From: Escherichia phage BEU50 | Direction: 5' to 3' (one strand) | Sequence record: OM632671.1 | DNA length: 64,000 nt | Shown: positions 38,204 to 38,226 of the stretch, in pieces | How positions within the stretch are numbered: the stretch's first letter is position 1 | How the letters are laid out: the number at the start of each line of letters is the position of its first letter | Made by a program: the position numbers and the translations under genes | The notes under the pieces: generated by a model | Databases searched by the model: none | What the model was told of the DNA's origin: nothing | What the model saw: only the letters and a program-made list of their open reading frames with translations

Positions 38204-38226
38204 GGGAGACTTCGGTCTCCCTTTTG
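38204..38226 (+). terminator. rho-independent terminator GGGAGAC-TTCG-GTCTCCC plus T-run
   Basis: 7 bp perfect stem, UUCG loop, TTTTG. Confidence 0.75.

What the first reader, a model, noticed from the sequence alone, without database searches (positions are those of the whole stretch)
38204..38226. Family of near-identical terminator hairpins built on the GGGAGAC/GTCTCCC stem
The same 6-7 bp GC-rich stem recurs with different tetraloops at 11351 (GTCTCC-TTCG-GGAGAC), 38204 (GGGAGAC-TTCG-GTCTCCC), 45972 (GGGAGAC-GTTG-TCTCCC) and 62685 (GGGAGAC-CGGA-GTCTCCC), plus relatives GGGAGC/GCTCCC at 2672 and 39146. Repeated identical hairpins in an AT-rich genome may serve as terminators and also as recombination or RNase processing sites.
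Basis: seen in the sequence. Interest (0 to 1): 0.35.

Follow-up and report, generated by a model that had tools for sequence, protein, structure and literature searches.

The report
Ordinary T4-type UUCG terminator hairpins
The repeated GGGAGAC/GTCTCCC hairpins are real, but they are the transcription-terminator hairpins typical of T4-like phages, already annotated as putative terminators in near-identical genomes, so the finding is ordinary.

Summary
Four hairpins share the GGAGAC/GTCTCC stem (11350, 38203, 45969, 62683); the paired pattern occurs 3 times against 0.01 expected. The window is a T4-like coliphage, about 98-99% identical to Mosigvirus genomes around the focal site. In relative MM02, three orthologous hairpins, including the focal one, are already annotated as putative terminators.

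All lie 0-27 nt after stop codons. All 9 GC-rich UNCG hairpins carry the loop on the transcribed strand, and most are followed by U-rich tails. Orthologous sites in relatives keep the hairpin through compensatory stem changes (GGGAGAC, GGGACTC, GGGACC, GGGAGCC). So the structure is selected, not the sequence.

These are the C(UUCG)G hairpins first described in T4 mRNA. Two of them (11350, 38203) are terminator-plus-early-promoter cassettes of the published PeSL type.

The shared stem is a lineage-enriched variant: 6 of 25 annotated terminators in MM02, and only the reversed-polarity rI.-1 hairpin in T4. Flanks are unrelated, so this is not a mobile repeat. The terminator reading is supported. 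The recombination role has precedent but no support here. The RNase role is untested.

Side notes: the loop flips at convergent terminators, and the window itself looks spliced at three mid-gene junctions.

The parts
38203..38222 (+). Focal hairpin AGGGAGAC-UUCG-GUCUCCCU. It starts 4 nt after the stop of the 59-aa gp30.9-like ORF (38019-38198) and is followed by UUUGUGCGUUU. Read as an intrinsic terminator of an early transcription unit.
   Evidence: Fold -19.2 kcal/mol, z -4.07. The orthologue is annotated 'putative transcriptional terminator, -16.30' in MK373784. Orthologous stems GGGACTC and GGGACTCC occur in relatives.
38259..38286 (+). T4-type early promoter TTTACT-N16-TACTAT with an upstream TG. 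It lies 37 nt after the focal hairpin and ahead of the ribosome-binding site and ATG (38329) of the gp30.8-like gene. Hairpin plus promoter form a PeSL-type cassette.
   Evidence: 13 such promoters, all on the + strand, 0.9 expected. The consensus is taken from PMC4122927.
11350..11367 (+). Hairpin AGUCUCC-UUCG-GGAGACU followed by UUUUUU. It starts 4 nt after the stop of the rI.-1-like ORF (10959-11345, DUF5856). It is a canonical intrinsic terminator with reversed arm polarity.
   Evidence: The hairpin is identical in T4 at 58797, after rI.-1, and in 5 close relatives.
11384..11412 (+). T4-type early promoter TTTACT-N17-TACTAT, 17 nt after hairpin 11350, followed by GAGGAG and an ATG. This is a second PeSL-type cassette.
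45969..45991 (.). Hairpin AAAGGGAGAC-GUU-GUCUCCCUUU with an A-run on one side and a T-run on the other. It lies between convergent genes: an alt.-3-like ORF on the + strand (ends 45962) and gp54 on the - strand (ends 45995). Read as a bidirectional terminator.
   Evidence: Annotated as a terminator in MM02. Orthologues carry other stems and flipped loops.
62683..62704 (-). Hairpin AUGGGAGAC-UCCG-GUCUCCCAU followed by UCUUGUUUCU on the minus strand. It starts 27 nt after the stop of the major capsid gene 23 (stop at 62732-62734) and faces a convergent segD-like homing-endonuclease ORF (62015-62674, + strand). Read as the gene 23 terminator.
   Evidence: A hairpin is present at this site in 62 T4-superfamily loci, with compensatory stem changes. 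T4 has segD in the same position.
39144..39161 (+). Hairpin UGGGAGC-UUCG-GCUCCCA, 6 nt after the gp30.7-like stop. It has no U-tract and is followed directly by GAGGAAAUUAUG of the next gene. Read as an intercistronic stabilising hairpin or attenuator.
   Evidence: Annotated as a terminator (-12.6) in MM02.
2671..2688 (+). Hairpin AAGCUCC-UUCG-GGAGCUU followed by CAUUUUAAUUUU. It lies at the end of a NUMOD3 homing-endonuclease-like ORF (1860-2672) that is inserted after gp39.
   Evidence: In MM02 the same hairpin directly follows gp39 and is annotated as a terminator.
58665..58682 (+).
   Evidence: The stem and loop are identical in T4 (110165) and MM02.
43466..43483 (+).
54536..54553 (-). Intercistronic type.
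29526..29539 (+).
   Evidence: Annotated as a terminator in MM02.
60330..60345 (.). GGGACC-GUAA-GGUCCC with T-runs on both sides, between convergent rnlB (+) and gp24 (-). Bidirectional terminator of the same design with a GNRA loop.
17850..17865 (-). GGAGCC-GCCG-GGCUCC followed by UUUUUUCUUU on the minus strand, after gp35.

Best explanation
These are Rho-independent (intrinsic) terminator hairpins and intercistronic hairpins of a T4-like phage, acting at the RNA level.

Proposed mechanism:
- As host RNA polymerase transcribes past a stop codon, a short G+C-rich stem forms in the nascent RNA. It is capped by an extra-stable C(UNCG)G loop, or by a GNRA or tri-loop at convergent sites.
- Where a U-rich tract follows (11350, 38203, 45969, 62683 on the minus strand), the transcript is released.
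- The same hairpin then protects the mRNA 3' end.
- At 11350 and 38203 an early promoter follows within 17-37 nt. Each small early gene is therefore an insulated terminator-promoter cassette of the PeSL type.

Why the stems match. The design space is narrow: an A-run, then GGGA(N1-3)C, then the loop, then G(N1-3)UCCC, then a U-run. One variant is enriched in this lineage. The copies do not descend from a common repeat.

Compensatory stem changes and loop flips at orthologous sites are most simply explained by template-switch mutation at the palindrome. Recombination may add to this.

What is shown: position, strand bias, covariation, lineage enrichment and unrelated flanks. What is inferred: that termination and 3'-end protection actually occur, and the mutational mechanism.
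For: Identity of the window. It is a T4-like phage, up to 98.9% identical over 36000-41000 to Mosigvirus and related coliphage records. The MM02 record annotates the orthologues of 38203, 39144 and 45969 as putative terminators.

Position. Every GC-rich hairpin lies 0-27 nt downstream of a stop codon.

Strand bias. All 9 GC-rich UNCG hairpins in the window carry UNCG on the strand of the upstream gene. That argues for an RNA-level function over a DNA-level one. By my own reading, the MM02 UUCG terminators match the gene strand in the same way genome-wide.

Loop preference. UUCG is by far the commonest tetraloop: 13 of 125 stem-5+ hairpins in the window and 26 of 278 in MM02. 20 of 25 annotated MM02 terminators have it.

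Covariation.
- Gene 23 site: 37 distinct tetraloop hairpins from 62 loci are 100% paired at stem positions 1-5, with 3-5 pair types per position. Controls with the 3' arm slid by one position drop to 10-28 of 37.
- 30.9 site: GGGAGAC, GGGACTC and GGGACTCC.
- gp54 site: GGGAGAC, GGGGACC, GGGAGAGC, GGGAGCC and GGAGCC.

Lineage enrichment.
- MM02 has 6 GGAGAC/GTCTCC hairpins, and 4 are the identical 18-mer. They follow genes 23, 32, 35 and 30.9.
- T4 has only the reversed-polarity rI.-1 copy.
- Identical 6-mer arms are about 3 times commoner within a genome than between genomes: 17 of 276 pairs against 6 of 285, Fisher p = 0.018, permutation p = 0.029.

Unrelated flanks. 40-nt flank identity is 0.17-0.40, against a null mean of 0.27 and a 99th percentile of 0.425.

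Convergence. The same stem in very diverse IMG/VR contigs carries a TTCG or CGAA loop in 71 of 122 cases. On inspection of the listing, the T-run usually lies on the side that makes the RNA loop UUCG.

Literature.
- C(UUCG)G hairpins were discovered in T4 mRNA (PMC4371310).
- PeSL stem-loops were shown to terminate transcription in reporter assays (PMC2839356).
- Lineage-specific stem consensus sequences such as A3-4G3-loop-C3T3-4 have been described (PMC4122927).
Against: - There are no transcript 3'-end data for this phage, and I found no Term-seq data for T4. Termination is therefore inferred.
- 39144, 54536 and 29526 lack a U-tract and cannot be canonical terminators.
- The tail of 38203 has only 3-4 consecutive U.
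- 11350 folds at only -10.8 kcal/mol in its 48-nt context (z -1.35). The nearest-neighbour model may under-weight the UUCG bonus.
- The within-genome excess of identical stems rests on two genomes and is only marginally significant.
- Why the 5' arm is purine-rich and the 3' arm pyrimidine-rich is not explained.
Confidence: 0.82

Rival explanations
1. The hairpins are mainly mRNA 3'-end or intercistronic stabilisers, or processing barriers. In this reading they block 3' exonucleases or mark endonuclease-processed ends and do not release RNA polymerase.
For: 39144, 54536 and 29526 have no U-tract and sit directly before the next gene's ribosome-binding site. [quoted passage not shown] That these hairpins are intercistronic is from my own knowledge. 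The phage carries a regB-like region (MM02 annotation; window 7044-8741 aligns to it).
Against: Three of the four GGAGAC copies have U-rich tails typical of intrinsic terminators. 45969 and 60330 have A- and T-runs on both sides, as bidirectional terminators do. PeSL stem-loops terminated transcription in reporter assays. The two roles are not exclusive.
Confidence: 0.3
2. The identical stems are kept alike by DNA-level exchange between dispersed terminators (gene conversion or PeSL-type recombination). In this reading the hairpins double as recombination linkers that shuffle gene modules.
For: - PeSL literature: recombination between cassettes, mini-circles, and a conserved G-run...C-run stem suggested as a protein target (PMC2839356; PMC4122927).
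- Within-genome sharing of stems is about 3 times the between-genome level.
- Hairpins sit at the edges of variable modules. The NUMOD3 ORF insert ends 10 nt before 2671. The segD-like ORF (stop 62672-62674) ends 8 nt before the hairpin, and collinearity with MM02 resumes at 62671, 12 nt before it. The module downstream of the gene 23 hairpin differs among phages.
- The window's gene 23 hairpin has the GGGAGAC stem seen in MM02 and the 83-85% gp23 group, not the GGGACC stem of its closest gp23 relatives.
Against: - The shared sequence is only 14-20 bp, with unrelated flanks. That is short for homologous exchange.
- In the published mini-circles the crossovers mapped between the -10 box and the ATG, not in the stem-loop.
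- The three collinearity breaks in this window are inside ORFs, not at hairpins.
- The same stem recurs in unrelated phages, which favours convergence.
- Homing endonucleases insert between a stop codon and its terminator for expression reasons, which explains the adjacency.
Confidence: 0.2
3. GGGAGAC/GTCTCCC is a recognition sequence for a specific factor. Candidates are RegB, which cuts GGAG, another phage RNA- or DNA-binding protein, or a restriction-type site such as GAGAC or GGTCTC.
For: By my own inspection of the stem sequences listed, GGAG is present in about half of the MM02 terminator stems. A regB-like gene region is present in the window. Arbiol et al. speculated about a protein binding the conserved stem.
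Against: - Orthologous sites swap the sequence freely while keeping the pairing. That is the signature of selection on structure, not on sequence.
- T4 lacks the GGGAGAC polarity altogether.
- GGAG buried in a stable stem would not be single-stranded for RegB (inference).
- T-even DNA carries modified cytosine, so restriction sites are largely irrelevant (established knowledge).
Confidence: 0.05
4. The recurrence is pure coincidence among a handful of GC-rich stems.
For: The design space is small. With GGG at the base, C closing the loop and 1-3 free positions, some repeats are expected. T4 also shows small sets of identical stems (AAGGGGC three times, GGACTCC twice).
Against: 3 found against 0.01 expected by shuffling. 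6 of 25 annotated terminators in MM02 carry the stem. Within-genome sharing exceeds between-genome sharing.
Confidence: 0.1

Closest known systems
C(UUCG)G / UNCG tetraloop hairpins of bacteriophage T4 mRNA (Tuerk et al. 1988, as reviewed in PMC4371310)
   Same: The loop is UUCG (UCCG at 62683) with a C-G closing pair, on the sense strand and in intercistronic positions of a T4-family genome. The rI.-1 and hoc hairpins are the same in T4 itself (stem and loop).
   Different: 45969 has a 3-nt loop (GUU) and 60330 has a GNRA loop. The GGGAGAC-polarity stem is absent from T4 and enriched in the Mosigvirus relative MM02.
Intrinsic (Rho-independent) terminators of E. coli RNA polymerase
   Same: A GC-rich stem, a short loop, a U-rich 3' tail, a position after stop codons, and A-/T-runs on both sides at convergent gene pairs.
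   Different: The stems are short (6-10 bp) and several U-tracts are interrupted. Three members have no U-tract at all. No 3'-end mapping is available.
PeSL (promoter-early stem-loop) cassettes of T4-type phages (Arbiol 2010, PMC2839356; Comeau 2014, PMC4122927)
   Same: 11350 and 38203 each consist of a stem-loop, an AT-rich spacer, TTTACT-N16/17-TACTAT, a Shine-Dalgarno sequence and an ATG, among small early genes. Lineage-specific stem consensus sequences are described in those papers.
   Different: 45969 and 62683 have no promoter and lie at convergent gene ends. No recombination at these cassettes is demonstrated here.
Template-switch mutation at hairpins (Monttinen and Loytynoja 2022, PMC8794818)
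   Same: Multi-base compensatory stem changes and exact loop inversions occur with unchanged stems and flanks at orthologous sites.
   Different: That work concerned rRNA and microRNA genes. Here the pattern is seen at phage terminators, and the mechanism is only inferred.

Membership tests
Intrinsic terminator | Stable GC-rich stem with a short loop | tested here: met
   Stems of 7-10 bp with 4-5 G-C pairs, and folds of -10.8 to -19.2 kcal/mol.
Intrinsic terminator | U-rich tract directly 3' of the stem on the transcribed strand | tested here: met
   Met for 11350 (U6), 45969 (UUUUUCUU with the stem Us), 62683 on the minus strand (UCUUGUUUCU) and 38203 (UUUGUG plus the stem U). Not met for 39144, 54536 and 29526.
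Intrinsic terminator | Lies downstream of a gene end in the direction of transcription | tested here: met
   All lie 0-27 nt after stop codons. The loop orientation matches the gene strand in 9 of 9 cases.
Intrinsic terminator | Transcripts actually end there | not testable with these tools
   There are no RNA data. A literature search found no Term-seq for T4.
C(UNCG)G tetraloop hairpin | 4-nt loop UNCG closed by a C-G pair on the RNA strand | tested here: met
   Met for 2671, 11350, 29526, 38203, 39144, 43466 and 58665 on the + strand, and for 54536 and 62683 (UCCG) on the - strand. Not met for 45969 (GUU) or 60330 (GUAA).
PeSL cassette | Stem-loop just upstream of a sigma-70-like early promoter, followed by a Shine-Dalgarno sequence and the ATG of a small early gene | tested here: met
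   Met for 11350 with promoter 11384-11412 and for 38203 with promoter 38259-38286. Not met for 45969 and 62683, which sit at convergent gene ends.
PeSL cassette | Mediates insertions, deletions or exchanges between relatives | tested here: inconclusive
   Some relatives (L195-198) lack the 30.9-like gene and its hairpin but keep the promoter. Modules next to hairpins vary. No breakpoint could be placed in a stem, and the window's own breaks are inside ORFs.
Dispersed repeat or mobile element (REP- or MITE-like) | Copies share sequence beyond the stem (homologous flanks or a longer unit) | tested here: not met
   40-nt flank identity is 0.17-0.40, within the random distribution (mean 0.27, 99th percentile 0.425).
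Curated RNA family (Rfam) | Match to any covariance model at its gathering score | tested here: not met
   0 matches over the whole window.

The most novel reading that the evidence does not exclude
In some T4-like lineages one terminator sequence (GGGAGAC-UUCG-GUCUCCC) may be actively spread or homogenised among unlinked sites. The mechanism would be palindrome-driven template switching or short-patch gene conversion. Terminators would then evolve in concert within a genome. Exact loop flipping at convergent terminators would be a frequent mutational toggle that decides which of two opposing transcripts receives the stable tetraloop.
Probability: 0.12. Interest if true: 0.45.

Novelty: already known. 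Interest (0 to 1): 0.14.

Why it matters
The finding matters little on its own. It re-finds the hairpin class that first revealed the UUCG tetraloop, and close relatives already carry the annotation. It is still useful in two ways:
- The hairpins mark transcription-unit boundaries for annotating this window.
- The covariation table gives a ready set of natural, functionally equivalent short terminators.

The only part with some wider interest is evolutionary. One stem variant is enriched in a lineage, and loops flip repeatedly at bidirectional terminators but never at unidirectional ones. That is a clean natural test that loop identity is selected at the RNA level, and that palindromes mutate by template switching.

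Tried and rejected
- Mobile or dispersed-repeat reading: rejected, because the flanks are unrelated.
- Rfam and tRNA scans of the whole window: nothing found.
Only the loop spectrum could be used, not abundance. Other UUCG hairpins in those 1.08 Mb were too few for a background: 17, of which 3 were again GGAGAC.
- Miller et al. 2003 T4 genome review (PMC150520): not held.
- Search for T4 Term-seq or 3'-end data: nothing usable.
- Distant orthologues of the 11351 site in IMG/VR: only 5 near-identical loci. T4 itself supplied the comparison.
- Hairpin variant tied to the downstream module at the gene 23 site: rejected. GGGAGAC occurs with segD, with a small reverse ORF and with gene 24 directly, whereas T4 with segD has GGGAACC.
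- Hairpins at the window's collinearity breaks: rejected. The junctions lie inside ORFs and show no microhomology.

Full report
**Observation**

The focal sequence at 38203-38222 is AGGGAGAC-TTCG-GTCTCCCT, followed by TTTGTGCG.
- 11350 AGTCTCC-TTCG-GGAGACT followed by T6
- 45969 AAAGGGAGAC-GTT-GTCTCCCTTT
- 62683 ATGGGAGAC-CGGA-GTCTCCCAT
- 2671 AAGCTCC-TTCG-GGAGCTT
- 39144 TGGGAGC-TTCG-GCTCCCA

The paired pattern GGAGAC-N3-8-GTCTCC occurs 3 times against 0.01 expected from dinucleotide-preserving shuffles. The 7-mer alone occurs 7 times against 2.7 expected. Predicted RNA hairpins fold at -10.8 to -19.2 kcal/mol, and the three GGGAGAC-polarity copies have z-scores near -4 on their sense strands.

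**What the window is**

The window has 37% G+C. Over 36000-41000 it is up to 98.9% identical to T4-like coliphage records such as FL18, JM17, mogra and MM02; MM02's record places it in the genus Mosigvirus.

In the MM02 record (MK373784) the orthologue of the focal hairpin is annotated 'putative transcriptional terminator, -16.30'. The orthologues of 39144 and 45969 are annotated as terminators too.

Gene context:
- 38203 follows the gp30.9-like ORF.
- 39144 follows gp30.7.
- 45969 lies between the convergent alt region (+) and baseplate gene 54 (-).
- 62683 lies between the major capsid gene 23 (-) and a convergent segD-like GIY-YIG ORF (+), the same arrangement as in T4.
- 11350 follows the rI.-1-like ORF.
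- 2671 follows a NUMOD3 homing-endonuclease-like ORF inserted after gp39.

**Evidence that the hairpins act in RNA**

Every GC-rich hairpin lies 0-27 nt after a stop codon.

All nine GC-rich UNCG hairpins carry the UNCG loop on the strand of the upstream gene. Seven are on the plus strand. The other two, 54536 and 62683, read UUCG and UCCG on the minus strand, where their genes lie. A DNA-level palindrome would show no such bias.

UUCG is by far the commonest tetraloop among stem-5+ hairpins: 13 of 125 in the window and 26 of 278 in MM02. Of the 25 terminators annotated in MM02, 20 have it.

U-rich tails follow 11350, 38203, 45969 and 62683 (minus strand). 45969 and 60330 have A- and T-runs on both sides, as expected for bidirectional terminators between convergent genes. 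39144, 54536 and 29526 have no U-tract and abut the next gene's ribosome-binding site, so they are better described as intercistronic hairpins or attenuators.

**Conservation is of structure, not sequence**

- Gene 23 site. In 62 T4-superfamily loci from IMG/VR a hairpin always follows gene 23. The 37 distinct tetraloop versions are 100% paired at stem positions 1-5, with 3-5 different pair types per position. Controls with the 3' arm slid by one position give only 10-28 of 37 paired. Stems include GGGAGAC, GGGACC, GGGAACC, GGGAGCC, GGGAGAGC and GGCAACC.
- 30.9/30.8 site. The window's GGGAGAC is replaced by GGGACTC or GGGACTCC in other phages.
- gp54 site. Stems are GGGAGAC, GGGGACC, GGGAGAGC, GGGAGCC and GGAGCC.
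- Common design. An A-run, then GGGA(N1-3)C, the loop, G(N1-3)TCCC, and a T-run.

**Is the shared stem a family by descent?**

No. The 40-nt flanks of the four copies are 17-40% identical, inside the distribution for random window pairs (mean 27%, 99th percentile 42.5%).

Whole-genome scans of relatives:
- MM02 (169,201 bp, assembled) has six GGAGAC/GTCTCC hairpins among its 25 annotated terminators. Four are the identical 18-mer GGGAGACTTCGGTCTCCC, after genes 23, 32, 35 and 30.9.
- T4 (168,903 bp) has 16 GC-rich UUCG hairpins but only one with this stem. That one is the reversed-polarity rI.-1 hairpin at 58797, identical to window 11350. T4's commonest stems are AAGGGGC (three times), GGACTCC (twice) and AAGGCC (twice).

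Identical 6-mer arms are about three times commoner within a genome (17 of 276 pairs) than between the two genomes (6 of 285; Fisher p = 0.018, permutation p = 0.029). The GGGAGAC stem is therefore a lineage-enriched variant, though this evidence is modest.

The same stem also turns up in very diverse IMG/VR contigs (30-68% G+C). There, 71 of 122 occurrences have a TTCG or CGAA loop. On inspection of the listing, the T-run usually lies on the side that makes the RNA loop UUCG. That points to convergence on a small set of good short terminators.

**Relation to known systems**

C(UUCG)G hairpins were discovered in bacteriophage T4 mRNA and shown to be unusually stable (Tuerk et al. 1988, as summarised in PMC4371310).

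Arbiol et al. 2010 (PMC2839356) and Comeau et al. 2014 (PMC4122927) described PeSL cassettes in T4-type phages. A PeSL is a stem-loop that terminates transcription in reporter assays, followed by an early promoter. These papers report lineage-specific stem consensus sequences (for example A3-4G3-loop-C3T3-4) and a proposed role in modular recombination.

In the window, 13 matches to the T4/PST early-promoter consensus TTTACW-N16-18-TAYWAT all lie on the plus strand, against 0.9 expected. Two of them (11384-11412 and 38259-38286) follow hairpins 11350 and 38203 by 17 and 37 nt and precede a Shine-Dalgarno sequence and an ATG. These two are PeSL-type cassettes. 45969 and 62683 are not.

Rfam has no matching family.

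**Recombination and RNase claims**

Hairpins do sit next to variable modules:
- The NUMOD3 insert ends 10 nt before 2671.
- The segD-like ORF ends 8 nt before 62683, and collinearity with MM02 resumes 12 nt before it.
- What follows the gene 23 hairpin differs among phages: segD, a small reverse ORF, or gene 24 directly.

However, the hairpin variant does not track the module. Homing endonucleases are expected to insert between a stop codon and its terminator for expression reasons. I therefore regard a recombination role as unproven here. RNase processing could not be tested. GGAG, the RegB motif, is frequent in the stems, but there it is base-paired.

**Mutational mechanism (inferred)**

Two patterns fit single-step template-switch mutation at palindromes (PMC8794818): multi-base compensatory differences such as GAC/GTC against CTC/GAG, and exact loop inversions.

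Loop flips with unchanged stems and flanks occur repeatedly at the two convergent sites.
- gp54/alt: the window has AAC against GTT in L199 and MM02. Other pairs are TTTC/GAAA, TCAC/GTGA and GCAA/TTGC.
- gp24/rnlB: TTTC/GAAA occurs twice.

At the unidirectional gene 23 site, none of the 37 distinct tetraloop hairpins shows the complement of UUCG or of the GNRA loops seen there. This suggests that flips arise often and are filtered wherever only one strand is read.

**A caution about the window itself**

The window is not collinear with any phage in the collection over 1-25000. Against MM02 and T4 it breaks cleanly at three places:
- 6157: the rIIA C-terminus is joined to a vs-region ORF.
- 17016-17021: nrdD, truncated at about half its length, is joined to codon ~43 of gene 37.
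- 24536/24537: T4 position 149138 in gene 59 is joined to 143081 in nrdA.2.

No junction shows microhomology. Genes 32, 37, 52, td and frd are missing from their usual places. Identity also switches between about 99.5% to T4 (23675-24536) and about 98% to Mosigvirus (from 29019). The window looks like a spliced or mis-assembled mosaic.

This does not affect the hairpins. Each one is present in real relatives: 11350 in T4 and in Mosigvirus-like contigs, and the others in MM02.

**Verdict**

The terminator interpretation is right and already known, because the annotation exists in near-identical genomes. The 'family' is a convergent, lineage-enriched stem variant and not a repeat element. The recombination and RNase ideas remain unsupported. 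Interest is low.

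Noticed in passing
window 6157; 17016-17021; 24536/24537: Three clean breaks in collinearity, all inside ORFs and without microhomology. The rIIA C-terminus is joined to a vs-region ORF. A half-length nrdD (16018-17103, Pfam NRDD profile positions 1-293 of 562) is joined to codon ~43 of gene 37. T4 position 149138 (gene 59) is joined to 143081 (nrdA.2). Genes 32, 59, td, frd, 37, 38, t, motA, 52 and rIIB are absent from their usual places. No phage record is collinear over 1-25000. The window looks like a spliced or mis-assembled mosaic of T4-like and Mosigvirus-like DNA.
   Followed up: partly
window 45969-45991 and 60330-60345; loci L199-L210, L224-L237: At the two convergent (bidirectional) terminators the loop is the exact reverse complement in close relatives, with stems and flanks unchanged. 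Pairs seen are AAC/GTT, TTTC/GAAA (three times), TCAC/GTGA and GCAA/TTGC. At the unidirectional gene 23 site, none of the 37 distinct tetraloop hairpins from 62 loci shows the complement of UUCG or of the GNRA loops seen there. This fits frequent template-switch loop inversion filtered by RNA-level selection.
   Followed up: partly
window 62560-62760 (minus strand): The gene 23 terminator of the window has the GGGAGAC stem found in MM02 and in the phages whose gp23 is 83-85% identical, with tail ATTCTTGTTTCT. Its three closest gp23 relatives (95-96% identity) have AAGGGACC-TTCG-GGTCCCTT instead. The 3' end of gene 23 also differs (GGAATTTAA against GGTATCTAA). This is local mosaicism next to the segD-like homing-endonuclease ORF.
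   Followed up: partly
window 1860-2672 (+), 56071-56853 (-), 62015-62674 (+): Three homing-endonuclease-like ORFs are absent from MM02 at these positions: a NUMOD3 ORF, a SegE-type GIY-YIG ORF, and a weak SegE/GIY-YIG match in the position that segD occupies in T4. Two of the three end within about 10 nt of a UUCG or UCCG hairpin.
   Followed up: partly
window, 13 sites from 7191 to 61715, all on the + strand: There are 13 matches to the T4-type early-promoter consensus TTTACW-N16-18-TAYWAT against 0.9 expected, all on the plus strand and most with TGn before the -10 box. They mark the early transcription direction of the window.
   Followed up: no
MM02 genome (MK373784) 109588, 132735, 147749, 156075: The identical 18-mer GGGAGACTTCGGTCTCCC terminates four unlinked genes in MM02: 23, 30.9, 32 and 35. 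The window lacks the gene 32 copy because that region is missing, and it has a different stem after gene 35 (17850, GGAGCC-GCCG).
   Followed up: yes
IMG/VR loci L003-L122: GGGAGAC-NNNN-GTCTCCC occurs in many unrelated viral contigs (30-68% G+C). 71 of 122 loops are TTCG or CGAA, and on inspection the T-run usually lies on the side that makes the RNA loop UUCG. This short terminator seems to be reinvented widely.
   Followed up: partly
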